Positions 7,262 to 53,114 of a DNA stretch of 64,000 bases are shown here, piece after piece. The DNA comes from a virus (Duplodnaviria > Heunggongvirae > Uroviricota > Caudoviricetes). The position numbers and the translations under genes are program-made. The notes beneath the pieces were generated by a model. It was not told where the DNA came from and ran no database searches. It worked only from the letters and a program-made list of their open reading frames with translations. The stretch lies in IMG/VR virus record IMGVR_UViG_3300031993_000018, positions 25,614-89,613 of that record; one strand, written 5' to 3'. Position 1 is the first letter of the stretch; every line of letters starts with the position of its first letter.

Positions 7262-7295
7262 TTATATTTAATTGTGTAATTTTAATCTTAAATAT

Positions 7296-7955
7296 ATGAC
7301 AGAATTTGAAAAGTTTTTAAGAGGCAATAATGTGTCTTCTCTGACATTAGGTAAGTATTCATCAAAAATCAATGCCGGTTACATCAACCCCACAATTCTT
7401 GAAGAGAGGAAGATGAATGTGACACAGATGGATGTGTTCTCAAGACTTATGCAGGATAGAATCATCTTCCTTGGTACCGAGATTGATGCAGATGTGGCCA
7501 ATATCATAAATGCCCAGCTTCTGTGGTTGGACAGTATGGGTGAAGAGGAAATAACAATGATGATCAATTCTCCAGGTGGTGTGTGTTATGATGGCCTGGC
7601 CATTATTGACACAATGAACTACATATCATCACCTATCACAACACAATGTGTAGGTATGGCAGCATCAATGGCTGCTGTCATTCTGTCTGCCGGTGAGAAG
7701 GGTCACCGTTTCGCACTTCCTCATTCAAGGGTTATGATTCATCAGCCTATTGGTGGTGCTCATGGTCAGGCAAGTGATATCCTCATTGAGGCAGAACAGA
7801 TCAAGATATTGAAGGATGAACTGTGTGGTATTATTGCAGAGAATTCAGGTAAACCACTTAAGCAGGTTCTGAAGGATGCAGACAGGGATTACTGGATGAT
7901 TGCCTCTGAAGCAAAGGAATATGGTTTGATTGATAATATAATCACAAAGAAATAA
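7296..7955 (+). CDS. clpP: ATP-dependent Clp protease proteolytic subunit
   Basis: MDVFSRLMQDRIIFLG, INSPGG, AASMAAV (Ser), RVMIHQP (His), DRDYWM (Asp); Bacteroidota-type N-terminus ILEERKMNVTQMD. Start moved to 7296. Confidence 0.95.
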   Translation: MTEFEKFLRGNNVSSLTLGKYSSKINAGYINPTILEERKMNVTQMDVFSRLMQDRIIFLGTEIDADVANIINAQLLWLDSMGEEEITMMINSPGGVCYDGLAIIDTMNYISSPITTQCVGMAASMAAVILSAGEKGHRFALPHSRVMIHQPIGGAHGQASDILIEAEQIKILKDELCGIIAENSGKPLKQVLKDADRDYWMIASEAKEYGLIDNIITKK

Positions 7956-19952: not shown

Positions 19953-21377
19953 ATGAAGAAAGAAGAATTCCTTAAAATAACCGGATATATTGGTGGTATC
20001 ATCAAGGGTACTTCCTTTGAGAATCATGTCTTTGCTGTAGGCGGGTCTGTAAGAGACCTGTGTATGGGTAATGACATCAAGGATATTGACCTTGTAATAG
20101 ATCTTCCTCATGGTGGTGTGGATTTTGCCAACTGGTGTAAGAACCAGGGTTACACAAACACTGTTGTGATTTATGAGACCTATGGAACAGCTATGTTCAA
20201 ATTTAAGGAATTCCCTGGTGAGGAAATTGAGTGTGTGATGACCAGAGGTGAGAAGTATCTTGACAAGGAATCCAGAAACCCTGTGACATCATTTGCCGAC
20301 ATCAATGAGGATGCAATCAGAAGAGACCTCACCATCAATGCCCTTTATTATAATGTAAGTACAGGTGAAATCCTGGATCTGGTTGGTGGTATGAAGGATA
20401 TTGAGGACCATATCATCAGGACCACCAATACTGACCCTGATGTTGTATTTGATGATGACCCCTTGAGAATCCTGCGAGTAATCCGTTTCGCAACAAGATA
20501 TGGTTGGGAGATTGAGGAGAAGACCTTCAAGTCTATGAAGAAATATGTCAGAAGACTTGACATCATCACCAAGGAGAGGATCCAGGCTGAACTCAACAAG
20601 ATTCTTCTTTGTAGGAATGCAGTAATGGGTATAGGTTATATCCATGACATAGGTGCTATGAAATATGTCATCCCGGAGTTTGAGAAATGTTATGGTCTTG
20701 AGCAGAATGCTTTTCATTTCGGTGATGTGGCAGAACACACCCTTGCTGTCCTTCAACACCATTGTGAAACCTTTGAACCCAATCTGACAGAGAGACTGGC
20801 ATGTCTTCTCCATGACATTGGTAAGGTCATCACAATGACAGTAAAGGATGGTAAAGTACATTTCTACAACCATGAATATGCAGGTGTGGGTATGGCTGTA
20901 AATATCCTCAAAGATTTGAAGTATGACAATGACACCATTGATGAGGTATGTTTCCTTATCAAGAACCATATGAGAACCAAGCAGATGGGTGATGGTGCCA
21001 GACTTATGAAGGATAAGTCTCTGAACAAACTCCTTTATGAGTGCAAGACCTATGAGAGATTTGAGTCTCTTATGAGGATAATTGAGTGTGACAACCTGGC
21101 ACACAAGAAGGAGTGCTGCATATATCACCAATACAAGGAACTGACAGAGAAGGTAAAGGGTTCAGACACTTATATGAAGATGTTTGGATACAGACTTCCT
21201 GTAACCGGTAATGACATTATGGAAACCTTGGGTATTGCACCTGGTCCCATTATTGCAGAGATAAACAACAGACTTCTCAAGCAGGCATTCAACAATCCTG
21301 GTATCACGAAGGAGAGTTGTCTTGCTATGCTTCCAAGACTGAATAAAGAGGCAGAACAGGTAATCAAGGAGAAATGA
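19953..21377 (+). CDS. cca: CCA-adding tRNA nucleotidyltransferase with HD domain
   Basis: VGGSVRDL, KDIDL, RRDLTINAL, DDPLRILR..RF, LLHDIGK. Confidence 0.93.
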   Translation: MKKEEFLKITGYIGGIIKGTSFENHVFAVGGSVRDLCMGNDIKDIDLVIDLPHGGVDFANWCKNQGYTNTVVIYETYGTAMFKFKEFPGEEIECVMTRGEKYLDKESRNPVTSFADINEDAIRRDLTINALYYNVSTGEILDLVGGMKDIEDHIIRTTNTDPDVVFDDDPLRILRVIRFATRYGWEIEEKTFKSMKKYVRRLDIITKERIQAELNKILLCRNAVMGIGYIHDIGAMKYVIPEFEKCYGLEQNAFHFGDVAEHTLAVLQHHCETFEPNLTERLACLLHDIGKVITMTVKDGKVHFYNHEYAGVGMAVNILKDLKYDNDTIDEVCFLIKNHMRTKQMGDGARLMKDKSLNKLLYECKTYERFESLMRIIECDNLAHKKECCIYHQYKELTEKVKGSDTYMKMFGYRLPVTGNDIMETLGIAPGPIIAEINNRLLKQAFNNPGITKESCLAMLPRLNKEAEQVIKEK

Positions 21378-42082: not shown

Positions 42083-42155
42083 GGCTCCGTAGCTCAGTTG
42101 GTAGAGCACGGCACTTTTAATGCCGGGGTCACGGGTTCGAGCCCCGTCGGAGTCA
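42083..42155 (+). tRNA. tRNA-Lys(TTT)
   Basis: Full cloverleaf, loop CTTTTAA. Confidence 0.95.
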
Positions 42156-42313
42156 CAAAAAAGTTCTGGGTGGGACCGGATAACCTTGCAAGGGTTATTG
42201 ATGATTATACTATATGTACTGATGGGTTAGTCCAGACTTAAAATCCACAAAGGCAATTGTACATAGTCCTGAAGTGGTTGAGGAGAGGTGCTTGCAATAC
42301 TCTCACCAAAAGG

Positions 42314-42389
42314 AATATCATAGCTCAGTTGGTTAGAGCACCCACAGACTGTAATTGGGAGGTCAGAGGTTCGAGTCCCCTTGATGTTA
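42314..42389 (+). tRNA. atypical tRNA with 9-nt anticodon loop (AGACTGTAA)
   Basis: Normal acceptor, D and T arms; enlarged loop, identity unclear. Confidence 0.55.
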
Positions 42390-42407
42390 CAAATTAGTTC
42401 TTTGAAA

Positions 42408-42742
42408 TATTTGTCTCAATGATGGTTATTTCTGCTTGTGTTTAGAGTTCCCGTCAGCAAACCTCAAAAGGATTAAATGTGGATTTCCACTATGTCCCGG
42501 TAATAACGCTGATAGCAGAATTAACAATCCCTATCTGGTGAAGACTGAAGATAAGGTGCTAAGCCCTGTAAAGATGAAAAATCACTATCTATGTCAATCC
42601 AGGACACTGTTTGTTTAAGATAGTGTATTGAAATATAGAGGGTAGTCCAAACAGGTTAGGATGCGAAGTTTAAGTAACATTACTATGGACGTAGAACACT
42701 TCTCTATTCTTGCAAGATTTCAATGAGGGATTGAGACAAATA
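42408..42742 (+). ncRNA. unidentified ~335-nt structured RNA
   Basis: Perfect 13-bp terminal helix TATTTGTCTCAAT/ATTGAGACAAATA, directly after a boxA-like motif and before tRNA-Asn. Confidence 0.6.
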
Positions 42743-42746
42743 ACAT

Positions 42747-42820
42747 TGGGATGTAGCTATAATGGTTAGAGCAACTGGCCGTTAACCAGAAGGTTGCAGG
42801 TTCGAGTCCTGTCATCCCAG
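42747..42820 (+). tRNA. tRNA-Asn(GTT), C33 variant
   Basis: Cloverleaf, loop CCGTTAA, G73. Confidence 0.9.
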
Positions 42821-42828
42821 CAAAAGAT

Positions 42829-42913
42829 ACCCCAATGGTGGAATGGTAGGCACGTCAGATTTAAGATCTGATGACCCGTAAGGGTCGTGTGGGTTCGAGT
42901 CCCACTTGGGGTA
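42829..42913 (+). tRNA. tRNA-Leu(TAA)
   Basis: Class II cloverleaf, loop TTTAAGA. Confidence 0.95.
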
Positions 42914-43030
42914 CACACCACGAACACAATGATGCAGCGTGGGTTCGGCATACTAGCTGCCGGGGTGTCTTTGACATCATAGAATTGGTGCGTCATCGGC
43001 CAGGTGACCCGAGTGGAAGACTGGCAAATA

Positions 43031-43104
43031 GGGCCTTTAGCTCAGTTGGTCAGAGCAACTGACTCATAATCAGGAGGTCCCAGGTTCAAGCCCTGGAAGG
43101 CCCA
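43031..43104 (+). tRNA. tRNA-Ile2/Met(CAT)
   Basis: Cloverleaf, loop CTCATAA, GGGCCTT acceptor (Ile2-like). Confidence 0.9.
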
Positions 43105-43195
43105 CAAATATTAAAGAAAGAATTTATGACACAGATGCTTAAACAGAAACAGGTATAGTCTGACCTCATTCAGTTATGAGGTCTCAAATGATTAT

Positions 43196-43267
43196 GGCCT
43201 TGTAGCTGAGTGGTAAAGCACCTGTCCTTTAAACAGGGGATCGTGGGTTCAATCCCCACCTGGGCCA
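43196..43267 (+). tRNA. tRNA-Lys(TTT), C33 variant
   Basis: Loop CCTTTAA; body similar to tRNA-Lys(CTT) at 51264. Confidence 0.8.
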
Positions 43268-43277
43268 CAAAACATAT

Positions 43278-43349
43278 GCCTCCATAGTTCAACGGATAGA
43301 ACGGAAGTTTCCTAAACTTTTGATATGGGTTCGATTCCCGTTGGAGGTA
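43278..43349 (+). tRNA. tRNA-Arg(CCT)
   Basis: Loop TTCCTAA. Confidence 0.9.
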
Positions 43350-43355
43350 CAAAGA

Positions 43356-43539
43356 TAAATAGCACCCATACAAAGATCTATATGGGTAAAGACAACTGGA
43401 CACGCCAAAGACTACGTGCCTTCTGGGATCGACACTCCGGAGTTATGTCACCCACCTGAGCGGCGGAACTGGTCTGGGTAACCAGGGTTTAATCTGAAGG
43501 GAAACCCCAGAGGAAGAGATGTCCGGATTGTGCTATTTA
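43356..43539 (+). ncRNA. unidentified ~184-nt structured RNA
   Basis: Perfect 10-bp terminal helix TAAATAGCAC/GTGCTATTTA, GC-rich interior. Confidence 0.55.
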
Positions 43540-43732
43540 ATAAAACGTTTAGGAATAGAGGTAGTTTTCCAGCGGGAATTAAGGATCACTGCTCGACATT
43601 AAGTTGTGAGTAAGATTGCCACCGGGTAACCAAACCTGGGTCGCCAGTAAGAAAGGTGGGTATGGTCGTCCCACCGAGTATGAACGCGGGCATAAAGACA
43701 GAACACTATAACCCTAAATATGAGACCAATAT

Positions 43733-43805
43733 GGTCTGGTAGCTCAATGGATAGAGCAACAGCCTTCTAAGCTGTGGGTTCTGGGTTCGAGTCCCAGCCG
43801 GATCA
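43733..43805 (+). tRNA. tRNA-Arg(TCT)
   Basis: Loop CTTCTAA. Confidence 0.95.
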
Positions 43806-43968
43806 CTTAAGGGATGATAGTCCACCTCCCTTAACATAGGATGATATGTTAGAAGAAATTACTGTGGACAACAAAACCAAAGCCAGACTGCAAATGGTGA
43901 AGGTTGGCGTTCTGAATATGAACAATTGGATTTTGCAGTGTTCAGTTGGGATTTGAAGGTTCGTAAAA

Positions 43969-44038
43969 TGCTTGTTGGTGTAGTGGTTAGCATTCCCCCA
44001 CCCGGGGGCGACGCTCGGTTCGAATCCGGCACAGGAGA
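43969..44038 (+). ncRNA. tRNA-like RNA with a 4-nt anticodon loop
   Basis: D arm GTG-TAGTGGTTAG-CAT, CCCCC-ACCC-GGGGG hairpin, GGTTCGAATCC T loop. Confidence 0.55.
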
Positions 44039-44059
44039 CTAAGTTATAATAATTAAGGA

Positions 44060-44371
44060 ATGGAACAGAAACCAAGAATTAAGTGGAAGAACTTCAAGAT
44101 CTGGATTAAGGACCAGTTGAAGAGGAAGACCTGGTTCAGGAATTTCTTCATTACAGGAAATGCCTGGGGTGGATTCAGTATCAACTCACACATCAACCAG
44201 CATACAGGTCAACCGAAGATAACCTACAACCATTTTGAATCCGCAAAGAAAGCGGCAGACAAGATGAGTCAGAAACATGGTACACATTTCAGTGTTTACA
44301 AGTGTCTCTATTGTGACGGTTATCACATAGGAAAGAACAGGGAGAATAAGACGGATTATGACAAAAAATAA
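44060..44371 (+). CDS. hypothetical protein
   Basis: C-terminal VYKCLYCDGYHIG (CxxC..H). Confidence 0.75.
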   Translation: MEQKPRIKWKNFKIWIKDQLKRKTWFRNFFITGNAWGGFSINSHINQHTGQPKITYNHFESAKKAADKMSQKHGTHFSVYKCLYCDGYHIGKNRENKTDYDKK

Positions 44372-44376
44372 AAATT

Positions 44377-44838
44377 ATGAGTAAGTTAGAGAACAAGATC
44401 CAGGAGGATATGGTTGAGGCAATGAAGAACAAGAATGAGTTTGTACGTGATACACTCAGGATTGTCAAGAGTGAGATAGGTGTCTTCAAGACCAGTGAGA
44501 AGTTCATCAAGAGAAATACTGAAATCACAGATGATGATATTCAGGGTATCCTTGAAGAGATGGTCAAGAGGAACAGAAAGAACATTGACACAGCGAAGGC
44601 CGCAAACCGTGATGACATAGTAAAGAAGAATGAGGATGAGATTTCAGTCTTTGAGAGTTATCTCCCAAAGAAGATGACTGAATCAGAGATAGAGGAGGTT
44701 GTTGTGAAGACCATCCAGGACCTGGGTGCAACATCAATGAAGGATATGGGAAAGGTAATGGGTTTCATCACCAAGACATATGCCGGAAAGGTGGATGGTT
44801 CAGTTGTTTCAAAAATTGTGAAGTCTAAACTTGGTTAA
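44377..44838 (+). CDS. yqeY: GatB/YqeY domain protein
   Basis: AMKNK...RDTLR.VKSEI, E.I.V.ESYLP..MTE.EI, MKDMGKVMG. Confidence 0.9.
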   Translation: MSKLENKIQEDMVEAMKNKNEFVRDTLRIVKSEIGVFKTSEKFIKRNTEITDDDIQGILEEMVKRNRKNIDTAKAANRDDIVKKNEDEISVFESYLPKKMTESEIEEVVVKTIQDLGATSMKDMGKVMGFITKTYAGKVDGSVVSKIVKSKLG

Positions 44839-44849
44839 TATAAAGAATT

Positions 44850-45080
44850 ATGAAAACTTGGATAATAGTATTGACAATTGCTTTCATCTTCTTGAAGCTT
44901 GTTGCAAGAGGGTTTGCAAACTACATCAGGAATGACAAGGAAGAGAGAGTGAAGTATTACTTTACCAGTGGTGCAACCCCACTTGGTGTGATACACGGAT
45001 TCATTTCTCTCTTTGGTACACTGGTAGGATTTGCTGATATAATCCTGATCATCATAATGGTTGCGAACAGATTGTTATAA
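44850..45080 (+). CDS. small membrane protein
   Basis: Two hydrophobic segments. Confidence 0.65.
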   Translation: MKTWIIVLTIAFIFLKLVARGFANYIRNDKEERVKYYFTSGATPLGVIHGFISLFGTLVGFADIILIIIMVANRLL

Positions 45081-45187
45081 ATCATTACATAAATATTTGG
45101 ATGTTTCAGATATTTTTGTTATATTTGTAACCAGAAAAGAGAAAGTTCTTTGAAATTTTTAAAATTTGTTCAACATAAATATAATAT

Positions 45188-45970
45188 ATGATTGTCGAAC
45201 AAATGGATAAACCCAAGTATCATTATTTCTATAAAATAACAAATAGACTCAATGGACATTATTATTATGGTGTTCATTCAACATATAATCTTGATGATGG
45301 ATATATGGGGTCTGGAAAAAGATTACATATTGCTTATAAGAAATATGGTATAGAATGTTTTGAAAAGGAAATTTTAAAATTTTTCAATACCAGAAAAGAA
45401 TGTGAGGAATATGAAGAATCAGTTGTTAATGAAATATTGATTGGTGATGACAATTGTTATAATTGTGTACCTGGTGGAGGAACTTTAAAAACTCCAGGAA
45501 AAGCATGCTTCATTGATGAAAATGGTAATATTATACAAGTAACCACAGAAGATGCACATAAGAGAGGATTAAGAGGTAATGCAGTGGGTACAACATTAGT
45601 AATTGTTGATGGTGAATATGTTATGGCTGATGTTGATAAACTTAATGATTATGATTCATTTAAGTATCCTATGAGTGGAAAAATAACAGTATATGACAAA
45701 AATAATAACCATTATGTTGTAAGTTGTGATGATAAAAGATATATTTCTGGAGAATTAAGACCATTCTGGTCAGGTAAAAAACTTTCAGAGGAAACAAAAA
45801 CAAAAATTAAAACATCACTATCACTAATACATCATCAACAAGGTGAAAAAAATTCTCAATATGGAACTTGTTGGATTACTAAAAATAATGAAAACAAGAA
45901 AATTAAAAAAGAGAATTTAGAAACATATCTTAATGATGGTTGGGTTAAAGGAAGATTTATAAAACACTAA
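45188..45970 (+). CDS. free-standing GIY-YIG (Seg-like) homing endonuclease
   Basis: YFYKITN..NG.YYYGVH....DDGYMGSG, F.KEIL..F, E; NUMOD-like tail GW.KGR; sigma-A promoter 45096-45127 and CATAAATA 45174-45181. Confidence 0.88.
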   Translation: MIVEQMDKPKYHYFYKITNRLNGHYYYGVHSTYNLDDGYMGSGKRLHIAYKKYGIECFEKEILKFFNTRKECEEYEESVVNEILIGDDNCYNCVPGGGTLKTPGKACFIDENGNIIQVTTEDAHKRGLRGNAVGTTLVIVDGEYVMADVDKLNDYDSFKYPMSGKITVYDKNNNHYVVSCDDKRYISGELRPFWSGKKLSEETKTKIKTSLSLIHHQQGEKNSQYGTCWITKNNENKKIKKENLETYLNDGWVKGRFIKH

Positions 45971-45985
45971 ATGTGTTAATGATAT

Positions 45986-46295
45986 ATAGGTCTTGTTGAT
46001 ACTTTCAGGAAAAACTGTAGGACACGGGTTCGAGTCCCGCTACCTCCACAAATTTATATTTTTTATATGGGGGTATATTGGTTTTGACTGCTTTTAAGTA
46101 TGGGAAGAGGAGAGGTCTATCGCCAATAACTGGCAAAAACAACAATTTCTCTGTAAACTTTGGCCCTGTTGCACAAACAGCTGCTCCAAAGGCTATGATG
46201 GCTGCCGCTTAATCGTGGTTTCCCTGATTAGTAAGTACACTGGCCAGGCTGGTGTCACAGAAGGTTCTATCCATCTTGTCCAAAAAGATGGATCT
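45986..46295 (+). ncRNA. ssrA: circularly permuted (two-piece) tmRNA
   Basis: Acceptor piece ~45986-46048 (T arm, TACCTCC-A) precedes coding piece starting GGGGGTA at 46069 (G3:U70); helix 2 AAGTAT/ATACTT; tag ORF 46132-46212 (A)GKNNNFSVNFGPVAQTAAPKAMMAAA*. 3' end is approximate. Confidence 0.88.
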
Positions 46296-46460
46296 TTTGA
46301 AAGTTCTTTAAAATATTATATGGGTGGATTGTATGCAGTTCTTGATAAGTCTGTATCAGTACTTGCAGATACTGTCTTGAATTAAAGTAAAGAATAGGAT
46401 CCTGATTACAATAAGTTCCCACCCGCCCTTACAGTTATGGTTAATCTGTGAAAACCAAAT

Positions 46461-46653
46461 GGGTCAATAGCTCAATGGTAGAGCAGCGGACTGTATAAGG
46501 AGTGGTTTACCGGAACAAACCAACCTGGTATGGTCGAGTGGTCAAAGACGTAGGTTTAGAAAACCGGAGTAAGTTAAAAACTTGCAGACGTTGGTTCAAA
46601 TCCAACTATCAGGTCTAATCCGCAGGTTGTAGGTTCGAGCCCTACTTGGCCCG
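46461..46653 (+). tRNA. tRNA-Asn(GTT) interrupted by a 121-nt insert (46495-46615) containing a nested class II tRNA-like element (46524-46614)
   Basis: Exons join into a perfect cloverleaf GGGTCAA..GCGGA-CTGT|TAA-TCCGC..TTGGCCC-G. Confidence 0.85.
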
Positions 46654-46657
46654 CAAA

Positions 46658-46745
46658 GTACATAGGAAGTCCTGGTCGTGGTGCACGCTTATGTTAGGTT
46701 CGGGTTTGATCAACCCACAGAGGTTCGAGTCCTCTCTATGTACCA
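46658..46745 (+). ncRNA. tRNA-like RNA with G-1:C73 (His-like) acceptor end and degenerate anticodon arm
   Basis: GTACATAG/CTATGTAC-CA, T arm AGAGG-TTCGAGT-CCTCT, variable hairpin GGGTT..AACCC. Confidence 0.65.
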
Positions 46746-46762
46746 AATAATAAATATAATAT

Positions 46763-46853
46763 GGAGGAGTGGCAGAGTGGTTTATTGCAGAGGTCTTGAA
46801 AACCTCCGGGCGTGTTGAGCGCCCCGTCGGTTCGAATCCGGCCTCCTCCGCCA
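46763..46853 (+). tRNA. tRNA-Ser(TGA)
   Basis: Class II cloverleaf, encoded CCA. Confidence 0.95.
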
Positions 46854-47034
46854 GTATAACAAATTCCAAAAGTTTGTTATATTTATTAAGGTTTTGTTAT
46901 GTGTTTGTTTTAAGTTAAAGGTTCTAACCGCAACAATTACAAAAAAGATGCTGTTCACATTTTCCAAATGAACCTTGTTTTGTTTCAAACACACAACTTC
47001 AAACCAAATAAACATTTAAATTAATTAAAAAAGT

Positions 47035-47676
47035 ATGAAGAAATTTTTGGCGTTTCTTATGAGCCTTGTGCTCATTTTCGGTTTGAGTTCATGTAACTCT
47101 TGCACAAGAAACCAGACTACTCCTACTGAAGAGACCACACCGGCAGTTGCTGAGTTGGTTGTTGAGAATGTAATCTCTACTGACCGTCAGGCAATGTACC
47201 TTGCACATGGTGGTGACTACAGATGGTATGAGACTGGTGTTCAACTCAAGGACTGGCTTGATGAAGAGAATGATGGTACTATCGATATGGTAGTTAATGT
47301 TTTCCAGGTAATTGAGGAGTATGATTCAACAAGTTTTGATACCTATGTTTACAAGTATCAGCATTTTTCAGATGGTACTGTAAATGAAGATGGTGTTCAT
47401 GGTTTCTGGGTTGAGGATTATCCTCTTGAACAGGAAGTAATTAAGGTAACATTCAAGGAAGCTTACCAGAAGATCCAGGAAGTTAATCTCCCAAGACCTC
47501 ATTCACGTCAGGTTGTATTGAGAAAGCCTATCGGTCCTAAGGATTGCAATCCACAGTGGATATTTGGTAATCTCCATGAGCAGATTTGGGTTGATGCAGT
47601 TACAGGTGAAGTTACTAACAGTAACCCTGCATTTGATGGTCTGAATCTCGGTACTCCACTTGGTGAGTGGCCCTAA
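47035..47676 (+). CDS. lipoprotein of unknown function
   Basis: Signal peptide MKKFLAFLMSLVLIFGLSSC. Confidence 0.8.
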   Translation: MKKFLAFLMSLVLIFGLSSCNSCTRNQTTPTEETTPAVAELVVENVISTDRQAMYLAHGGDYRWYETGVQLKDWLDEENDGTIDMVVNVFQVIEEYDSTSFDTYVYKYQHFSDGTVNEDGVHGFWVEDYPLEQEVIKVTFKEAYQKIQEVNLPRPHSRQVVLRKPIGPKDCNPQWIFGNLHEQIWVDAVTGEVTNSNPAFDGLNLGTPLGEWP

Positions 47677-47763
47677 TAGAAACAATATAGGTTGAATGGT
47701 ACAACCTGAAGTTAAATATCCACAGGGAAAGGGTTAGCCCTGGAAGTTAAAGTCACCCAATAC

Positions 47764-47888
47764 TATGATGTGACAAGGAATAGGTATACTTGCGCCACGA
47801 GATAATATCAGATGGAAGAAGAGGAAGGGTATTCTTCATAAAAGTTGGACTAATTTAGTCAATGTGGGTTCGAGTCCCACTATCATAG
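47764..47888 (+). ncRNA. expanded tRNA-like RNA (125 nt)
   Basis: TATGATG/TATCATA-G acceptor, CAAG/CTTG D stem, GTGGG-TTCGAGT-CCCAC T arm, enlarged centre. Confidence 0.65.
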
Positions 47889-47895
47889 CAAATAT

Positions 47896-47969
47896 CGTGG
47901 GGTGCTAGCAGTGGTCAGCTAACTGGGCTCATAACCCAGAGGTCAGGGGTTCGAATCCCTTCCCCGCTA
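47896..47969 (+). tRNA. tRNA-fMet(CAT)
   Basis: C1 mismatch, GGG/CCC anticodon stem, loop CTCATAA. Confidence 0.9.
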
Positions 47970-47977
47970 CTAAACTT

Positions 47978-48115
47978 GCCAGTATAGGACAGTATATTGG
48001 ACATCTGTAACCTCATGGGAGGTCGCAAGAGAGAATGAAGGTAACATCTTCAACGTACCGGGTTAGTTCAAAGTAGAATACTCTTGTTATGTAAGTTCGA
48101 TTCTTACTATTGGCA
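47978..48115 (+). ncRNA. expanded tRNA-like RNA (138 nt)
   Basis: GCCAGTA/TATTGGC-A acceptor, GTAAG-TTCGATT-CTTAC T arm, several internal hairpins. Confidence 0.65.
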
Positions 48116-48144
48116 CAAAAAAAAATAAAAAAGTTTCAAAAATA

Positions 48145-48196
48145 TTTGGTAGTTTCAAATTTTTTTGTTATCTTTGTAGTGTTGAAAGTTCTTTGA
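48145..48196 (+). promoter_or_regulatory. sigma-A promoter plus boxA-like AGTTCTTTGA (near-identical block at 56651-56699)
   Basis: TTTG-N20-TATCTTTG followed by AGTTCTTTGA at 48187-48196. Confidence 0.8.
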
Positions 48197-48205
48197 TAGT
48201 TTTAA

Positions 48206-49285
48206 ATAAAACAAGGGTGGGTTTCTCATCCTTCCCAAGAAGCCTTCGGGTTGAGGGAGAAAGATAACCAGTGAATACATAAGCTGGGAAAGTCAGTAAG
48301 ATATTGCATAGTATCCCTGGCGGAGGGTTCAAATCCTCCCTGTAAGAAAACCAAGATGGTCAGCATATCCTGGAATGGCAGTACACTGTGAAAGGGGTAT
48401 GCGGAGGCTCTTACCAAGTCTCCTTGAGTGGTAACACTGACAAGAACCATTTTGCTTCCGGACAAAAAGATTACCGGTCTGATTGTCTGAATGACCAAAG
48501 TTTATTGATATCCAAGAGACTACACCAAGTCTTCCTAACAGGTGGTGCTGAGATTCCAGAAATGGTTGGATATTAGAATTAGTAGAATGAGTAACACAGA
48601 GGTGTGTGAAAGTAGAAAGGTGATGTATCTAAACCTCTCAAAAGGAGGCATGATAACAAGGGTAACCTCATCTTTCAATCGGTAAATGCTCAATGATTCA
48701 AATTGGATGTTGACCAAAGACAGAATAATTAGATTATTAAGCAAGCAAAAGTGTTACCCACACTGTAGGACAATACAGTTATGCTTCTGTAAGATGAAGC
48801 CTTATGGATCCCGCAAAGTGAAGTAAGAGTATCGCCAGTATGGACAATGCAAGTGGAGGCATCCACTCAACTCGGCAGAGGTCTTTGGCTTGAAAGCAGC
48901 TATGTAATACAGTGTAGTGACTATGGTAGTCTTGGTGGAAACACCATAAATCCACCTGTATCCGCTTCACCAATAGCAATGTTGGTGTGTGTAAATCTCA
49001 GGCGACTGGGACTTGTCCTGAAAAGGAAGAGAGTAGAGGCGGCGATTGGGGTCAACACTCAGCCCAAATCAATGAATTATTCAGAGTCGGTAACCAGTCC
49101 GGTATGGAAGAGCGAGACTTCCCTGGATAACAAAGTGATATTATAGAGGTACAAATTCTCCTGAATATATAGAACCACTCAGGAGGTTAATTCGAGGCCA
49201 GGGATATTACTGAAACAAATTCCCTTTTGGTTCACAGGGAATGGGAAGAGTGAGTTTGTAATCTGCGAGGTCGGGTTAGTTTTAT
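48206..49285 (+). ncRNA. candidate giant structured ncRNA (~1.08 kb; GOLLD/ROOL-like context)
   Basis: No credible ORF, visibly GC-richer than flanks, many hairpins, ends ATAAAAC/GTTTTAT, lies between a promoter/boxA and tRNA-Asp. Confidence 0.55.
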
Positions 49286-49295
49286 CTCTTCAAAT

Positions 49296-49369
49296 GGTGC
49301 GTTGGTGAAGTTGGTTATCATGCCACCCTGTCACGGTGGAGTTCACGGGTTCGAGTCCCGTACGCACCG
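49296..49369 (+). tRNA. tRNA-Asp(GTC)
   Basis: Loop CTGTCAC, G73. Confidence 0.95.
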
Positions 49370-49531
49370 CACATAAATATTATGTAAAGAACCATACCGC
49401 AATTTTAAACAAATTTCATTTTGATTGAAGAAACCATTGGTTCTTGTTTCGTTTCTTTGTTTAGAAAAACAAAGTGGCAGAGACTGGTGGAAACACCCCT
49501 CTTGTGAGTGGTAATCTCACATACAAAAACT

Positions 49532-49614
49532 TGCCGGCTATACCCTGGAGGTAAAGGTGTCACAGGCCTATGCATGGGCTGTTTGCAGTACTGGTTCGAA
49601 TCCAGTCTGGGTAG
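49532..49614 (+). ncRNA. non-canonical tRNA-like RNA
   Basis: T arm ACTGG-TTCGAAT-CCAGT, extended D stem ATACC/GGTGT, long central hairpin. Confidence 0.5.
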
Positions 49615-49667
49615 CAAATAAAAATGAAAATTGAATTTACATAAATAACTTATAAAGATTAAAAATT

Positions 49668-49884
49668 ATGATGACATTGCATACACATATTATGTTTATT
49701 GCGGGCAAGCCAGGTTGTTATCGTTTTTGGGAACAGAAGCAACTCGGACCTAAAGGTGTGTGGGTATGTCACCAGGATAAATAAGGATTAAACCAGGATA
49801 GGAAAGAAGGTACAGGAAATCCAACAAATATCAATAGAGACATCTCACACAAATCCAAAAAAAGATTTATGTGAGATTTTTTTT
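49668..49884 (+). promoter_or_regulatory. second leader peptide (49668-49784, MMTLHTHIMFIAGKPGCYRFWEQKQLGPKGVWVCHQDK) with antiterminator/terminator
   Basis: GTGTGGGTATGTC (49758-49770) pairs with GACATCTCACAC (49839-49850), which overlaps the terminator at 49842-49884; CATAAATA at 49640. Confidence 0.65.
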
Positions 49885-49892
49885 ATTAACAC

Positions 49893-49967
49893 TGGGTAGT
49901 ACGGTAATTGGTTCACCGGCTGCATTTGGGATGCAGACATATGCGAGTTCGAGTCTCGTCTACCCAA
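49893..49967 (+). tRNA. tRNA-Pro(TGG)
   Basis: Loop TTTGGGA. Confidence 0.88.
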
Positions 49968-49992
49968 CAAATATACAAAACAAAATAAGATT

Positions 49993-50238
49993 ATGGAGAC
50001 ACTCAAACAGATTGTGAAGGGAAGTGCAAAGTTGGAATGCATGAGGAGTGGTGGTGTCGCAGAATACATCATCACATCAGAGACAGGAAAAAGATATGTA
50101 TTGGACATAGACCTGTCAGACAAGGTGGACTGTGGAGAGAGTGCTTCATTTATGCCATACTATGAGAGAGCAATAATCCTGATGCGATGGATTCGCAGAG
50201 CAATGGAGAAGGGTGAATTGATAGAGTTAAATTCATAA
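49993..50238 (+). CDS. hypothetical protein
   Basis: 81-aa ORF with A-rich leader. Confidence 0.7.
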   Translation: METLKQIVKGSAKLECMRSGGVAEYIITSETGKRYVLDIDLSDKVDCGESASFMPYYERAIILMRWIRRAMEKGELIELNS

Positions 50239-50397
50239 ACACATCCGAGATGATCATAGGATGTGGGTTGGGAAGATGAGGATATGTCCGAAAAATTGCA
50301 TAAAGTAGGATGTATTTAGGTAGCGAGCCCCTCCCTGGTAGCCAAACAGGTAGTTTAAAGTGCTTAAGAACAGACCAATCATTGAATTATTAGATAT

Positions 50398-50472
50398 GCC
50401 GGGTTCTACTAATTGGAATAGGTACCCTGATTTTCAATCAGTGCAATATGGGTTCGAGTCCCATACCCGGTA
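50398..50472 (+). tRNA. tRNA-Glu(TTC)
   Basis: Loop TTTTCAA. Confidence 0.85.
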
Positions 50473-50477
50473 CAAAT

Positions 50478-50560
50478 GCGGATGTGGTGTAATGGTAGCC
50501 ACACTTGGTTCAGAGCTAAGCGGCCGAAAGGCCATATGGGTTCGAGTCCCTTCATCCGCA
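50478..50560 (+). tRNA. tRNA-Leu(CAG)
   Basis: Class II, loop TTCAGAG. Confidence 0.92.
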
Positions 50561-50565
50561 CACAT

Positions 50566-50639
50566 TGGGGGATCATCTAATAGAGTAAGGATACCACTCT
50601 GATACAGTGGAAATCCGGGTTCAAATCCCGGCCTCCCAA
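50566..50639 (+). tRNA. tRNA(GAT) on a Gln/Glu-like body
   Basis: U1:A72 TGGGGGA acceptor, TCATCTAAT D region, loop CTGATAC. Confidence 0.7.
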
Positions 50640-50673
50640 CAAAAGAAAGTTCTTTGACATATTGTACACATTT

Positions 50674-50749
50674 GGGTCTGTGGCAGAGATGGTCTATGCG
50701 CTGGACTGAAAATCCAGAGAAGGAGGTTCGAGTCCTCCCGGACCCACCA
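50674..50749 (+). tRNA. tRNA-Phe(GAA)
   Basis: Loop CTGAAAA, encoded CCA. Confidence 0.93.
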
Positions 50750-50957
50750 AGATTTGGGAAAAGGTTCTTGCATTGATGAAAGTAAATGACACCAGACACC
50801 TGATCAGTGAGGAAGTGTTGTTGAAATCGTCTAAAGTTGAGATGGGGAAAGTGTCATCAGTACTAGTCAAATGATGGGATGGAACTCAAGGAGACATATA
50901 CTCTGCCTGGCGTGGGAGTCAGGAGGTTCATCAGCAAGTAAAGTGGAATCTTGACCT

Positions 50958-51041
50958 GTGGGAGTGGCGTAACTGGTAGCCGCGTCGGTCTAAGAAGCCG
51001 ATCCCAGAAATGGGGTGAGAGTTCGAGTCTCTCTTTCCACA
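50958..51041 (+). tRNA. tRNA-Leu(AAG)
   Basis: Class II, loop CTAAGAA (A34). Confidence 0.88.
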
Positions 51042-51047
51042 CAATAT

Positions 51048-51130
51048 TGGTCCCGGCATCATAGTAGATGTCATGGAAGCTGCCTGATTCAGCAGGACTG
51101 AACAGTGGGGTTCGATACCCTGGGGACCAT
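51048..51130 (+). ncRNA. non-canonical tRNA-like RNA
   Basis: TGGTCCC/GGGACCA acceptor, 5-bp D stem, 8-nt central loop CTGATTCA. Confidence 0.5.
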
Positions 51131-51135
51131 CAAAT

Positions 51136-51258
51136 GTATATGTGAAGCAGATAGGATGTGCTACTACAAGAATTAGTAATCATTTGGATATTGCATACAT
51201 ATGTTCAGTAGAGATGAAAAGGATGTGGACTATGTGAGTTCGAATCTCATCATATACA
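51136..51258 (+). ncRNA. expanded tRNA-like RNA (123 nt)
   Basis: GTATATG/CATATAC-A acceptor, GTGAG-TTCGAAT-CTCAT T arm. Confidence 0.65.
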
Positions 51259-51263
51259 TAAAT

Positions 51264-51338
51264 GCTCCCGTAGCTGAGTTGGTTCAAAGCACCTGTCTCT
51301 TAAACAGGGGATCCTGGGTTCGAGTCCCAGTGGGAGTA
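51264..51338 (+). tRNA. tRNA-Lys(CTT)
   Basis: Loop CTCTTAA. Confidence 0.95.
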
Positions 51339-51348
51339 CAAAACAACT

Positions 51349-51637
51349 GGGGCACAGAGGAGATAAATCGGCTGGAAGCCAGCATTCTATGAAGTCATGA
51401 ATTCATAAAGTGTACTCTGTGTGAGGGTTTTTACCAGAGATTGCATCATGCAATTGATGAATGGGAGTTTCCCTTTTAAGTTCGAATCCACAGTGCTCCA
51501 CAAATGCCGGCTTATCACAGTATATAGGTGACTGTAGCCGCCCCGTACAGGCGGGTCTGGCCAACCGAAAGTGTACAGCTCGAGACAATGTATATGAGTA
51601 GAAGTCAGATATGGATGGTTCGATTCCTCCGATGGCA
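51349..51637 (+). ncRNA. two degenerate expanded tRNA-like RNAs (51349-51500, 51506-51637)
   Basis: GGGGCAC/GTGCTCC-A and GCC../..GGC-A ends, each preceded by a GTTCGA T-loop motif; T stems imperfect. Confidence 0.5.
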
Positions 51638-51867
51638 CAAAGTTTGTTATATTTTAATAAAGGGTTCTTTATGACAGTTTGAACCTTAGATGTTAATAAC
51701 TGTTAGTAGTCCTTTGCATCTTTATCCTACTATATCTTATGAAGATGTTTTAAGCCCAAAGTACACGGGAACGAAGATGGGATCTGCCTCTTAACAATGC
51801 ATACTGAATCCTCCAAAACGTAGGTTGGCACAGTTAGACCTCTGGGGTTATTCTAAAAGGTCATTAT

Positions 51868-51940
51868 GGACCATGTAGTGTAACGGCGAGCATATCACAT
51901 CTGCACTGTGATGGAGGGGTTCGAATCCCACATGTGTCCA
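51868..51940 (+). tRNA. atypical tRNA, loop TCTGCAC (Ala TGC, or shifted Cys GCA)
   Basis: D, anticodon and T arms present; bulged acceptor stem. Confidence 0.55.
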
Positions 51941-52215
51941 CAAATGAATATTTGAGGTTCCAGAAGGCTTCCGTAATGTGGCATAGTCGGAGGAGACACT
52001 GGAGATGGATAAACATGGAAATTCGGGCTACCGGGTGAGGCAGTGTTAGACGAGGAGGCTTGCTGGAATAAGCAGTCCGGGTAGAATATTCATCACAAAA
52101 CCACAGAGTGTCCAGAGTGTCGAAGCATTGGTTGGTATGATGCTTTAAAAGTTTAAACTCTACTCCGAAAGTGGGCGACATATTCGAGACTATACTCTGT
52201 GTGACAAAACTTTTC

Positions 52216-52291
52216 TATGGTATCTTCTAGTGGTCCAGGAAGTCCGAGGCTAACAGCGGTAGGGACAGAGGTTCGAATCCTCTTACCATAG
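52216..52291 (+). tRNA. Gln-like tRNA with enlarged anticodon region containing CTA
   Basis: U1:A72, G73, TCTTCTAGTGGTCCAGGA D arm; three extra nt in the anticodon arm. Confidence 0.55.
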
Positions 52292-52313
52292 CAAATTAAA
52301 TAATTCATATAAT

Positions 52314-53021: not shown

Positions 53022-53024
53022 TTT

Positions 53025-53111: not shown

Positions 53112-53114
53112 AAT

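What the first reader, a model, noticed from the sequence alone, without database searches (positions are those of the whole stretch)
45986..46295. Circularly permuted two-piece tmRNA with an unusually long 27-aa tag
Seen: the 3' tRNA-like half (T arm, TACCTCC-A at 46048) comes before the 5' half (GGGGGTA at 46069), separated by a 20-nt AT-rich spacer. G3:U70 is present and helix 2 pairs across the pieces. The resume context AATAACT-GGC gives (A)GKNNNFSVNFGPVAQTAAPKAMMAAA. Established: two-piece tmRNAs are known from certain proteobacterial and cyanobacterial lineages; Bacteroidota tmRNA is normally one-piece with a short tag such as GENNYALAA; C-terminal AA is a ClpXP degron. Inference: an independent permutation in a Bacteroidota phage, with a tag possibly tuned to the phage's own ClpP (7296). 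I cannot check whether tmRNA databases already list such phage genes.
Basis: partly seen in the sequence, partly recalled or inferred. Interest (0 to 1): 0.72.

Follow-up and report, generated by a model that had tools for sequence, protein, structure and literature searches.

The report
Two-piece tmRNA of rumen megaphage
A giant phage of rumen Bacteroidales carries a real, rearranged ("two-piece") gene for tmRNA, the RNA that frees stalled ribosomes. It appears to descend from the ordinary one-piece tmRNA of its host group, so it is a new phage-only branch of an already known kind of gene.

Summary

The gene is conserved. All five large TerL relatives (185-411 kb, rumen) carry it, and I collected 23 distinct copies from viral and gut metagenome contigs.

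- **Structure:** the acceptor stem, the T stem and three helices joining the two pieces covary. G3:U70 is invariant in 23 of 23 copies.
- **Tag:** the frame varies mostly at third codon positions (6/4/16) and its indels are whole codons.
- **Rescue kit:** every relative also encodes SmpB and ClpP. This record also encodes a ClpA-like ATPase with an IGF loop.
- **Host:** Bacteroidales is supported by 11 canonical Bacteroidota promoters against 1.4 expected, one feeding this gene, and by ClpP's best 80 genome matches.
- **Origin:** the RNA shares the Gly resume codon, its context and the D-loop with Bacteroidales one-piece tmRNAs, and fails the beta and cyano lineage models (the alpha model was never reported). 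A related huge phage has a one-piece tmRNA with a related tag. A separate permutation is therefore likely, though it may be older than this clade.
- **Tag length:** the long tag belongs to one subclade only; the sister subclade has 15-16 residues.

Earlier agents of this scan reached similar verdicts on the same sequence and on related DNA. Verdict: a new variant of a known kind.

The parts
45096..45127 (+). Bacteroidota-type promoter (-33 TTTG, 20 nt, -7 TATATTTG), the likely promoter of the transcription unit that holds the tmRNA gene
   Evidence: The pattern TTTG-N19-21-TAnnTTTG occurs 11 times in the window against 1.43 expected (largest shuffle 5). Ten of the 11 are on the + strand. In relative L057 the same element lies directly upstream of the tmRNA gene.
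45188..45970 (+). Homing endonuclease gene inserted between the promoter and the tmRNA gene (inserted segment about 45159-45981)
   Evidence: PHROG phrog_314 homing endonuclease, E 1.5e-30. In L057 the homologues of window 45158 and 45982 lie 3 nt apart, so the segment is an insertion specific to this phage.
45986..46048 (+). Acceptor piece. It holds the 3' strands of cross-piece helices P2c (45986-45994), P2b and P2a, then GAC, the T arm (46024-46040), the acceptor 3' strand (46041-46047) and discriminator A (46048).
   Evidence: ARAGORN and RF04321. Covariation in the T stem, acceptor stem and P2a-c across 23 distinct genes. One RNA-library contig of a relative ends exactly at 45986 (weak).
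46049..46068 (+). Intervening spacer that must be removed to free the 3' end. It begins CAA, so CCA is not encoded.
   Evidence: Spacer length varies from 16 to 113 nt among relatives, with no conservation between the groups. Sequence read.
46069..46298 (+). Coding piece. In order: acceptor 5' strand (46069-46075), D-loop analogue TGGTTTTGAC, 5' strands of P2a-c, the GCCA/TGGC hairpin that closes on the resume codon, the tag frame, a 3' domain, then a terminal hairpin (46269-46293) followed by a T run.
   Evidence: The terminal hairpin covaries (columns 433-441 with 449-456).
46132..46212 (+). Tag reading frame: GGC resume codon, 26 codons, then TAA
   Evidence: ARAGORN. The frame is open in all 23 genes. 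Indels are whole codons. Variable sites by codon position are 6/4/16, with binomial P = 0.003 for 16 or more of 26 falling at the third position.
7272..7955 (+). Phage ClpP, a possible protease for tagged proteins
   Evidence: Pfam CLP_protease at 233 bits. It passes the NCBIfam ClpP subfamily cut-off NF001368 (256.7 against 249) but stays below the equivalog cut-offs, for example NF011091 at 299 against 361. It is present in all 5 relatives.
19953..21377 (+). Phage CCA-adding enzyme, which could complete the unencoded CCA end of the acceptor piece
   Evidence: PHROG tRNA nucleotidyltransferase, E 3.5e-71. The best NCBIfam match is CCA tRNA nucleotidyltransferase, below its equivalog cut-off. 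35 of 41 tRNA genes called in the window also lack an encoded CCA.

Best explanation
This is a functional, circularly permuted (two-piece) tmRNA gene of a 350-410 kb class phage that infects rumen or gut Bacteroidales.

**Proposed mechanism**
1. A host-type promoter at 45096-45127 drives a transcript through an inserted homing-endonuclease gene into the tmRNA gene.
2. The acceptor piece (45986-46048) and the coding piece (46069 to about 46298) fold together. They are held by the 7-bp acceptor stem and three cross-piece helices of 8, 5 and 9 bp.
3. RNase P cuts before G46069. The 3' trailer after A46048 is trimmed.
4. CCA is added by the phage or host CCA-adding enzyme. This step splits the RNA into two pieces.
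5. AlaRS charges the RNA through G3:U70.
6. SmpB, which is phage-encoded in every relative, delivers it to stalled ribosomes.
7. Translation resumes at GGC 46132 and adds 26 more residues.
8. The tagged protein is presumably degraded.

**What is shown:** the anatomy, covariation, selection on the tag frame, co-occurrence with SmpB and ClpP, the host-type promoter, and sequence likeness to Bacteroidales tmRNA.

**What is inferred:** processing, charging, tagging and proteolysis.

**Origin and role:** the gene most likely arose by permutation of a Bacteroidota-type one-piece tmRNA within phages or other mobile elements, separately from the alpha-, beta-proteobacterial and cyanobacterial two-piece lineages. 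Its likely role is to keep ribosome rescue running in a phage that carries its own translation and tRNA-repair kit.
For: **Detection**
- ARAGORN tmRNA* and RF04321 at 56.4 bits against a cut-off of 47.
- RF04321 matches in all five TerL relatives, four of them above the cut-off, and ARAGORN calls a permuted tmRNA in all five.
- 23 distinct genes from 6 viral and 23 metagenome contigs.

**Structure**
- The acceptor stem occurs in 8 sequence variants that all pair (one has a single U-U mismatch). G3:U70 holds in 23 of 23.
- RNAalifold predicts 49 pairs, 16 of them with compensatory changes. These include helices between the two pieces.

**Tag**
- Variable sites by codon position are 6/4/16 (P = 0.003), and indels are in-frame.

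**Two-piece form**
- The spacer is variable and unconserved, at 16-113 nt.
- CCA is not encoded in 8 of the 23 genes, so the 3' end has to be processed and completed.

**Rescue kit**
- SmpB at 174-180 bits and ClpP in all five relatives.
- A ClpA-like ATPase with a PIGF loop in this record.

**Host**
- 11 Bacteroidota-type promoters against 1.43 expected.
- ClpP's best 80 genome matches are all Bacteroidales or Bacteroidia where a taxon is named.

**Origin**
- Bacteroidales one-piece tmRNAs share the GGGGAUG acceptor strand (with subclade B), UGGUUUUGAC, the GCCA-UAAC-UGGC hairpin and tags that begin GN.
- The beta lineage model matches only the tRNA-like domain (26-42 bits against a cut-off of 84) and no cyano match was listed. 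Control viral permuted tmRNAs match beta or cyano models over their full length.
- The huge phage LR756500 has a one-piece tmRNA with tag GNNAEMRMAA, close to subclade B's ...NEMVMLAAA. It ranks 1st and 2nd nearest to the two subclade B representatives in a 41-sequence panel.

**Expression (weak)**
- Contigs from four rumen RNA libraries hold relatives of the gene. In one library the tag region has 50-180x depth against 1-4x for the flank.
Against: - There is no direct evidence of processing, alanylation or tagging.
- The RNA-library data are assembled contigs. One of them bridges the spacer, so it is either precursor RNA or contaminating DNA.
- SmpB is not in this record, which is only 64% complete.
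- RF04321 scores for the family sit near the cut-off (41.7-68 bits), and one relative is below it.
- This copy has an A-C mismatch at the first pair of the T stem.
- I found no convincing pseudoknot 1 and did not resolve the domain 3' of the tag.
- The likeness to Bacteroidales tmRNA rests on short segments. The ranking is noisy, and the panel held no one-piece tmRNAs from outside GTDB Bacteroidota.
- The alpha_tmRNA model was never reported for any locus, and the output hides lower-scoring hits of the same clan, so alpha origin was not separately excluded by a score.
Confidence: 0.85

Rival explanations
1. The phage lineage took a two-piece tmRNA from an established two-piece lineage (Alphaproteobacteria, the betaproteobacterial lineage or cyanobacteria). 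Its tag and resume region then converged on the Bacteroidales type. On this reading there was no separate permutation event.
For: The best lineage-specific Rfam hit is beta_tmRNA, at 42 bits on the tRNA-like domain. Phages are known to move two-piece tmRNAs between host groups (Melnitz, PMC9004378). The tmRNA database lists a few 'alpha', 'beta' and 'cyano' permuted genes in Bacteroidota genomes. No alpha_tmRNA score was reported, so alpha origin is excluded only indirectly.
Against: The beta match is local (model positions 82-161 of 331) and far below the cut-off of 84. Viral beta and cyano types match their lineage models over the full length at 78-299 bits. The D-loop, the resume hairpin, the Gly resume codon and the subclade B acceptor stem match Bacteroidales one-piece genes and not the other permuted genes. 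A related huge phage has a one-piece gene with a related tag.
Confidence: 0.07
2. The RNA is made and tags proteins, but not mainly to send them for ordinary degradation. The long, conserved tag (core FSVNFGPVAQ...APKAM) is a private signal read by a phage factor: the phage's ClpA-like ATPase with ClpP, or an adaptor. It could also be a tag that escapes the host's proteases.
For: The tag core is under purifying selection well beyond the C-terminal residues. Most relatives end in AFA or AYA, not the host's LAA or MAA. The phage encodes ClpP and a ClpA-like ATPase with an IGF-type loop. Tag length roughly doubled within the clade, from 15-16 to 24-27 aa.
Against: Nothing tested links the tag to any reader protein. 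This window's own tag ends in the ordinary AAA. Long tags also occur in cellular and cyano-type tmRNAs (31 aa).
Confidence: 0.25
3. The locus is a decoy or a decaying remnant: an RNA that resembles tmRNA, competes with host tmRNA or is not used, and does not tag proteins.
For: A phage tmRNA without a coding region that inhibits host tmRNA has been reported (mycobacteriophage DS6A, cited in PMC11915505). This copy has one T-stem mismatch and a homing endonuclease gene between it and its promoter.
Against: The tag frame is intact in 23 of 23 genes with third-position variation. All helices keep pairing through compensatory changes. SmpB is co-encoded in all five relatives.
Confidence: 0.04

Closest known systems
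Phage-encoded two-piece tmRNAs of aquatic myophages (OM43 phage Melnitz, pelagimyophages, cyanophages; PMC9004378)
   Same: A circularly permuted ssrA gene carried by a large phage, with the acceptor piece upstream of the coding piece. ARAGORN and Rfam detect it as permuted.
   Different: Those genes belong to the alpha or cyano lineages of their hosts or former hosts. The viral examples fetched here pass lineage models. This family matches no lineage model beyond the tRNA-like domain, carries Bacteroidales signatures, sits in a tRNA array behind a Bacteroidota promoter, and always travels with a phage SmpB.
One-piece tmRNA of Bacteroidales (tags GNNNYALAA, GNNTVALAA, GENNYALAA)
   Same: Gly (GGC) resume codon, AUAA(C/A)U context, the GCCA/UGGC hairpin on the resume codon, the UGGUUUUGAC D-loop analogue, the GGGGAUG/CAUCUCC acceptor stem (subclade B), and an Asn-rich tag start.
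   Different: The gene order is standard and the RNA is about 395 nt with a pseudoknot-1 region. Tags are 9-10 aa and end LAA or MAA. The phage RNA is split, about 300 nt in total, shows no evident pseudoknot 1, and has a 15-27 aa tag.
One-piece tmRNA plus SmpB of other huge Bacteroidota-associated phages (LR756500.1, 462 kb; Prevotella phage Lak-B5)
   Same: Huge phages with SmpB homologues, 45-50% identical. LR756500's tag GNNAEMRMAA resembles subclade B's tags. The same GTTCTTTGA...ATAT motif lies just upstream of the RNA.
   Different: Their tmRNA genes are in the standard order, and RF04321 found no match in them. Only the clade studied here, and some other viral contigs, have the permuted form.
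Two-piece tmRNA of Caulobacter and other Alphaproteobacteria (Keiler, Shapiro and Williams 2000; Rfam RF01849)
   Same: The same logic: the precursor is cut by tRNA-processing enzymes into an acceptor piece and a coding piece that stay together by base pairing.
   Different: A separate lineage, with an Ala resume codon, an encoded CCA, and a different helix and pseudoknot layout. No alpha_tmRNA match was reported for this family.

Membership tests
tmRNA (ssrA), permuted or two-piece gene form | A tRNA-like domain: a 7-bp acceptor stem, a T arm with a GTTCGA-type loop, and a D-loop analogue (GG...GAC) | tested here: met
   All three are present. The stems covary across 23 genes.
tmRNA (ssrA), permuted or two-piece gene form | The alanine identity pair G3:U70 and discriminator A | tested here: met
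   G:T at pair 3 in 23 of 23 genes, while pairs 4-7 change. The discriminator is A in all.
tmRNA (ssrA), permuted or two-piece gene form | Permuted order: the 3' half (T arm, 3' acceptor strand) lies upstream of the 5' half, separated by a spacer that is discarded | tested here: met
   The spacer is 16-113 nt and is not conserved between groups.
tmRNA (ssrA), permuted or two-piece gene form | A tag reading frame with a resume codon and an in-frame stop, conserved as a coding sequence | tested here: met
   open in all 23 genes, variable sites 6/4/16 by codon position, indels in whole codons.
tmRNA (ssrA), permuted or two-piece gene form | Helix 2 joining the two pieces | tested here: met
   P2a, P2b and P2c pair across the pieces and show compensatory changes.
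tmRNA (ssrA), permuted or two-piece gene form | Rfam RF04321 gathering score | tested here: met
   56.4 bits against 47 for this gene. Relatives score 41.7-68.2, and one is below the cut-off.
tmRNA (ssrA), permuted or two-piece gene form | The partner protein SmpB in the same genome | tested here: inconclusive
   Not found in this 64%-complete record. Present in all five relatives at 174-180 bits.
tmRNA (ssrA), permuted or two-piece gene form | Cleavage into two RNAs, alanylation and trans-translation | not testable with these tools
   Only contigs from RNA libraries were available. RNA-end mapping and biochemistry are needed.
Beta- or cyanobacterial two-piece lineages (RF01850, RF01851) | A full-length match above the lineage model's gathering score | tested here: not met
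   The best hit is beta_tmRNA at 26-42 bits, local to the tRNA-like domain, against a cut-off of 84. No cyano_tmRNA match was listed. Control viral genes match beta or cyano models over their full length at 78-299 bits, and three of the four pass the cut-off.
Alphaproteobacterial two-piece lineage (RF01849) | A full-length match above the lineage model's gathering score | tested here: inconclusive
   No alpha_tmRNA match was listed for any locus, including the comparison phages. The output hides lower-scoring overlapping hits of the same clan, so any alpha score lies below the weak beta score but was not seen directly.
Descent from Bacteroidota-type one-piece tmRNA | Shared derived signatures: a Gly resume codon with the AUAA(C/A)U context and GCCA/UGGC hairpin, and U instead of C in UGGUUU(U)GAC | tested here: met
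   In a sample of GTDB Bacteroidota tmRNAs, only a subset has these signatures: 12 of 35 tags start with Gly and 7 have TGGTTTTGAC.
Descent from Bacteroidota-type one-piece tmRNA | A phylogenetic position among Bacteroidota tmRNAs in a structure-aware tree of all tmRNAs | not tested
   Only a segment-similarity ranking over 40-41 sequences was made. It is consistent but noisy.

The most novel reading that the evidence does not exclude
Phages and other mobile elements of Bacteroidota carry their own, separately permuted lineage of two-piece tmRNA. On this reading the permutation was selected because it lets the gene mature inside polycistronic tRNA arrays using only RNase P, 3' trimming and CCA addition. 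The expanded, conserved tag would be a private degron read by the phage's own ClpA-like/ClpP machine. That would give the phage ribosome rescue and disposal of stalled products that do not depend on the host's SsrA-SmpB-ClpXP system, for example when host defences cut tRNAs or mRNAs.
Probability: 0.25. Interest if true: 0.7.

Novelty: new variant of a known kind. Interest (0 to 1): 0.5.

Why it matters
Gene permutation of tmRNA has been described in three bacterial lineages and in mitochondria. A further, apparently separate case confined to phages of Bacteroidota shows that the rearrangement recurs. Here related huge phages carry the one-piece form (LR756500, Lak), so the two arrangements can be compared directly to ask what selects for a split tmRNA.

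These megaphages carry a near-complete ribosome-rescue module: tmRNA, SmpB, ClpP, a Clp ATPase and a CCA-adding enzyme. It sits beside about 40 tRNA genes. That bears on how far giant phages free themselves from the host's translation quality control.

There is a practical point too. The family scores at the edge of the Rfam cut-off, and its best lineage-specific hit is the beta model. Catalogues may therefore miss it or type it as 'beta'.

Tried and rejected
- **Phage database:** BLAST of the gene and of 20 kb of the window against 50,697 phage records gave no match.
- **First DNA pattern:** a generic permuted-tmRNA pattern found only alpha-, beta- and cyano-type viral genes, and no relatives.
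- **Species genomes:** a strict family pattern found nothing in one genome per species for 185,579 species. A sample of 151 Bacteroidales genomes gave one other, different permuted gene on a mobile-element-like contig.
- **Loose pattern:** a looser pattern for Gly-resume permuted genes was mostly noise. 120 stretches yielded only four further Gly-resume genes.
- **Single-sequence folding:** co-folding the two pieces one genome at a time gave inconsistent structures, so I dropped it in favour of comparative analysis.
- **Alternative P2b pairing:** AAGUAU with AUACUU fails in subclade B. The GGAAG/CUUUC register covaries, so I preferred it.
- **3' domain:** I could not define pseudoknots or resolve the domain 3' of the tag.
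- **Promoter motif:** counted alone, TAnnTTTG was not enriched (72 against 61). Only the full two-box pattern and the TATCTTTG variant are enriched.
- **RNA libraries:** these gave only assembled contigs of relatives, so they show no ends, strand or processing. Parts of the stretch without cover say nothing.
- **Literature:** I found no paper describing two-piece tmRNA in Bacteroidota phages. The Lak paper does not mention tmRNA or SmpB.
Full report
**1. Observation**

ARAGORN reports 41 tRNA genes and one permuted tmRNA (tmRNA*) at 45957-46303 on the + strand. Its tag is GKNNNFSVNFGPVAQTAAPKAMMAAA. Rfam's tmRNA_permuted model (RF04321) matches 45991-46212 at 56.4 bits, against a gathering score of 47 and with E 2.7e-8 for the whole window.

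- TACCTCC at 46041-47 and discriminator A at 46048.
- A 20-nt AT-rich spacer.
- GGGGGTA at 46069-75, which gives G3:U70.
- Resume codon GGC at 46132 and stop TAA at 46210.

One detail needs correcting. CCA is not encoded, because the DNA reads A-CAA.

**2. What genome this is**

The window lies in a 153,613-bp IMG/VR virus record estimated to be 64% complete. The window and the rest of the record encode a T4-type large terminase, ClpP, a CCA-adding enzyme, an RNA ligase, an NAD-dependent DNA ligase and a YqeY-like protein.

The terminase finds five large relatives in IMG/VR, 185-411 kb long, three of them at least 94% complete.

Two lines of evidence point to Bacteroidota, and specifically Bacteroidales, as the host:
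- **Promoters.** The two-box Bacteroidota promoter TTTG-N19-21-TAnnTTTG occurs 11 times against 1.43 expected (largest shuffle 5). Ten of the 11 are on the coding strand and share an extended consensus. The variant TATCTTTG alone occurs 18 times against 4.3 expected.
- **ClpP.** The phage ClpP's 80 best matches among one genome per species for 185,579 species are 58-64% identical. All that carry a taxon name are Bacteroidales or Bacteroidia, many from ruminant guts.

Public runs that hold the sequence are bovine, goat and sheep gut metagenomes. One relative comes from a human gut assembly.

**3. Conservation**

All five TerL relatives have an RF04321 match (four above the cut-off), and ARAGORN calls a permuted tmRNA in each. 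A family-specific DNA pattern gave these results:

| Collection | Result |
|---|---|
| Viral contigs | 6 contigs |
| Metagenome contigs | 23 contigs |
| Species genomes | none |

Together these give 23 distinct genes. They fall into two subclades.

| Subclade | TerL identity to the window | Members | Tag length | Tag |
|---|---|---|---|---|
| A | 84-86% | the window, G001, G002 and most metagenome contigs | 24-27 codons | G[KN][NT]N[GNAV]FSVNFGPVAQT[AVT]APKAM[VMF]A[FAY]A |
| B | 70-72% | G003-G005 and four metagenome contigs | 15-16 codons | GNFNNNTNEMVMLAAA, GNFNRNTEQVMYAAA |

**4. Structure**

Helices were extracted by sequence anchors from the 23 genes.
- **Acceptor stem:** 8 sequence variants, all pairing (one with a single U-U mismatch). 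Pair 3 is G:U in 23 of 23, while pairs 4-7 change on both sides.
- **T stem:** three of its five pairs covary. The window's own copy has an A-C mismatch at the first pair.

RNAalifold on the full alignment predicts 49 pairs, 16 of them with compensatory changes. These include three helices between the acceptor piece and the coding piece:
- P2a, 8 bp, directly flanking the tRNA-like domain.
- P2b, 5 bp, with G-C changing to A-U at both ends.
- P2c, 9 bp, formed by acceptor-piece bases 45986-45994.

It also predicts a 4-bp hairpin (GCCA/UGGC) that closes on the resume codon, and a terminal hairpin at 46269-46293 followed by a T run.

Almost the whole acceptor piece is therefore paired with the coding piece. 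I saw no room for a normal pseudoknot 1 and did not resolve the 3' domain.

**5. The tag is a coding sequence**

Among the 15 subclade A genes with 26 codons, variable sites fall 6, 4 and 16 at codon positions 1, 2 and 3. The binomial probability of 16 or more of 26 at the third position is 0.003. Eight codons vary only synonymously. The two length variants differ by +1 and -2 whole codons, and the stop stays in frame in every gene.

The conserved core (FSVNFGPVAQ, APKAM) lies well away from the C-terminus. Selection therefore acts on more than a terminal degron.

**6. Why it must be two pieces**

The spacer between the discriminator and the 5' G ranges from 16 to 113 nt and is not conserved between groups.

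In 8 of the 23 genes the bases after the discriminator are CAA, not CCA. A chargeable 3' end can then arise only by cleavage and CCA addition, which separates the pieces.

The same holds for the phage's tRNAs. 35 of the 41 tRNA genes called in the window lack an encoded CCA, and most are followed by C and an A run. The phage also encodes a CCA-adding enzyme.

**7. Transcription context**

In relative L057, a canonical Bacteroidota promoter and a GTTCTTTGA...ATATATAGG motif lie directly upstream of the acceptor piece. In the window the same promoter is at 45096-45127. An 823-bp segment holding a homing-endonuclease gene (45188-45970) has been inserted between it and the tmRNA gene.

In subclade B the acceptor piece starts about 10 nt after a tRNA gene. 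In several genomes a tRNA follows the terminal hairpin at once. The gene is therefore embedded in tRNA-type processing units.

**8. The rest of the rescue system**

SmpB is absent from this partial record. It is present in all five relatives at 174-180 bits, above NCBIfam's equivalog cut-offs. ClpP is also present in all five.

This record also encodes a 655-aa ClpA-like double-AAA+ protein with a PIGF loop, the kind of loop that docks on ClpP. Whether it reads the tag is unknown.

**9. Origin**

*Lineage models.* Viral permuted tmRNAs fetched as controls match lineage-specific Rfam models over their full length: beta at 298.7, 97.6 and 78 bits, and cyano at 122.2 bits, with 84-172 bits on RF04321. 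The megaphage family scores 42-63 bits on RF04321 and matches beta_tmRNA only locally on the tRNA-like domain, at 26-42 bits against a cut-off of 84. No alpha_tmRNA match was reported for any locus. Lower-scoring hits of the same clan are hidden in the output, so alpha origin is excluded only indirectly.

*Host signatures.* One-piece tmRNAs from five Bacteroidales genomes have tags GNNNYALAA, GNNNLALAA, GNNTVALAA and GNQSYALAA. They also have:
- a 5' end GGGGATG(T)TTTGGTTTTGAC;
- a 3' acceptor strand CATCTCC in four of the five;
- the resume context GCCATAACTGGCAAC.

The phage genes share these features. The acceptor stem is identical in subclade B.

Across a sample of GTDB Bacteroidota, only a subset has the Gly resume codon (12 of 35 tags) or UGGUUUUGAC (7). 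The other permuted viral genes all resume with Ala.

*Related phages.* SmpB homologues occur in Lak Prevotella megaphages and in the huge phages of Al-Shayeb et al.. RF04321 finds nothing in five of those records.
- LR756500.1 carries a one-piece tmRNA with tag GNNAEMRMAA and the same upstream GTTCTTTGA motif.
- Lak-B5 has a weak RF00023 match of 48 bits that ARAGORN does not call. I read it by eye as a one-piece gene with tag DDEIEFRMAA.
- In a 41-sequence panel, LR756500 ranks first and second nearest to the two subclade B representatives.

*Conclusion.* The simplest reading is that a Bacteroidota-type one-piece tmRNA was carried by huge phages and became permuted in one lineage.

The event may be older than this clade. 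Four further viral contigs have permuted genes with Gly-resume tags: L220, L310, L314 and L327. One of them starts GKAKNFS, like subclade A. A ParB-bearing contig in a Bacteroidales genome holds another permuted gene with a Gly resume.

**10. Expression**

Assembled contigs from four rumen RNA libraries of four studies contain relatives of the gene at about 85-95% identity. In one library the tag region reaches 50-180x depth against 1-4x for the flank. One contig ends at 45986. Another bridges the spacer, so it is either precursor or DNA. This is a weak hint of transcription and says nothing about processing.

**11. What is known already**

- Huge phages are reported to carry tmRNA and SmpB (PMC7162821).
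- Two-piece tmRNAs are reported in 53 phage genomes, mostly marine, and are assigned to the known lineages (PMC9004378).
- The 2025 tmRNA database recognises alpha, beta and cyano permuted types. It lists 79 phage sequences and a few dozen permuted genes in Bacteroidota genomes, with no further comment that I found (PMC11915505).
- I found no description of a Bacteroidota-phage two-piece lineage.
- Earlier agents of this scan examined the same sequence under another record, and related genes, and reached the same verdict.

**12. Verdict**

This is a genuine, conserved and very probably functional two-piece tmRNA. It is a new, phage-borne variant of a known kind of gene, with good but not conclusive evidence for a separate permutation event.

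The long tag is real and under selection, but it is a feature of one subclade and is not unprecedented in length. Its link to the phage's Clp proteins is a hypothesis.

Noticed in passing
window 45159-45981: A homing-endonuclease gene (ORF 45188-45970) is inserted exactly between the Bacteroidota-type promoter and the first base of the tmRNA gene. Relative L057 lacks it, with the flanks 3 nt apart. Related endonuclease sequences occur at other places in relatives' tRNA arrays.
   Followed up: partly
window 3857, 11218, 16490, 18280, 21922, 30606, 41910, 45096, 48145, 56651 (+ strand): Ten copies of an extended promoter consensus, TTTGG...N...TTGTTATCTTTG. This is the Bacteroidota -33/-7 type. 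Several copies head tRNA blocks, and two (48145 and 56651) are identical.
   Followed up: partly
window 46303-46325; L035, L057, L065 upstream of the tmRNA; L210 (LR756500.1) upstream of its one-piece tmRNA: A motif GTTCTTT(G/A)A, then 6-10 nt, then ATAT(A)GG, lies immediately before the first base of stable-RNA genes in this clade and in a distant huge phage. It may be a second promoter or a processing signal.
   Followed up: no
L036 1565-1671, L062, L066; L032 and L072; L033 and L053: In some relatives the discarded spacer is 72-113 nt long and is conserved within each group, with predicted GC-rich hairpins. These are inserts of unknown nature inside the tmRNA precursor.
   Followed up: no
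L161 / L175 110-596 (G033 contig C48, 109 kb, Bacteroidales genome): A different permuted tmRNA, with tag GNKIESKIAA, a spacer of about 250 nt and a TAtaTTTG promoter box upstream. It sits on a contig with a ParB-like gene and giant multidomain ORFs, so the contig is probably a mobile element.
   Followed up: partly
L220 11748-12110; L310 350-843; L314 2248-2774; L327 11570-12096: Further viral contigs hold permuted tmRNA genes whose tags start with Gly: GNVNNIVDYTHVA, GKAKNFSMRRRSVHRMMRAAA and GKTIQMFPQQLRAVA. Gly-resume two-piece tmRNAs therefore look broader than the clade studied here.
   Followed up: no
L211 about 1500-1910 (Prevotella phage Lak-B5, MK250024.1 409798-410207): A one-piece tmRNA-like gene that ARAGORN does not call (RF00023, 48 bits). 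It has a 5' GGGGATG, a putative tag DDEIEFRMAA and a 3' CCATCTCCA. The phage also has an SmpB homologue at 112449-112877. The Lak paper does not mention tmRNA or SmpB.
   Followed up: partly
G000 10920-12887 (about 12.7-14.7 kb upstream of the window; locus L026 421-2388): A ClpA-like double-AAA+ protein of 655 aa. Its first Walker A looks degenerate (GDFGSGKR), its second module is intact and it has a PIGF loop. It has no N-terminal domain and scores far below the ClpA and ClpB equivalog cut-offs.
   Followed up: partly
window 42083-60694: 35 of 41 tRNA genes called in the window lack an encoded CCA. Most are followed by C and then an A-rich run, the same trailer as the tmRNA acceptor piece.
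   Followed up: yes
window 46305-46460: The stretch just after the tmRNA terminator begins GGGTGGATTG. It is conserved elsewhere in relatives' tRNA arrays (for example L063 1167-1280 and L067 2527-2671) and is covered by an RNA-library contig. It is probably another small stable RNA.
   Followed up: no
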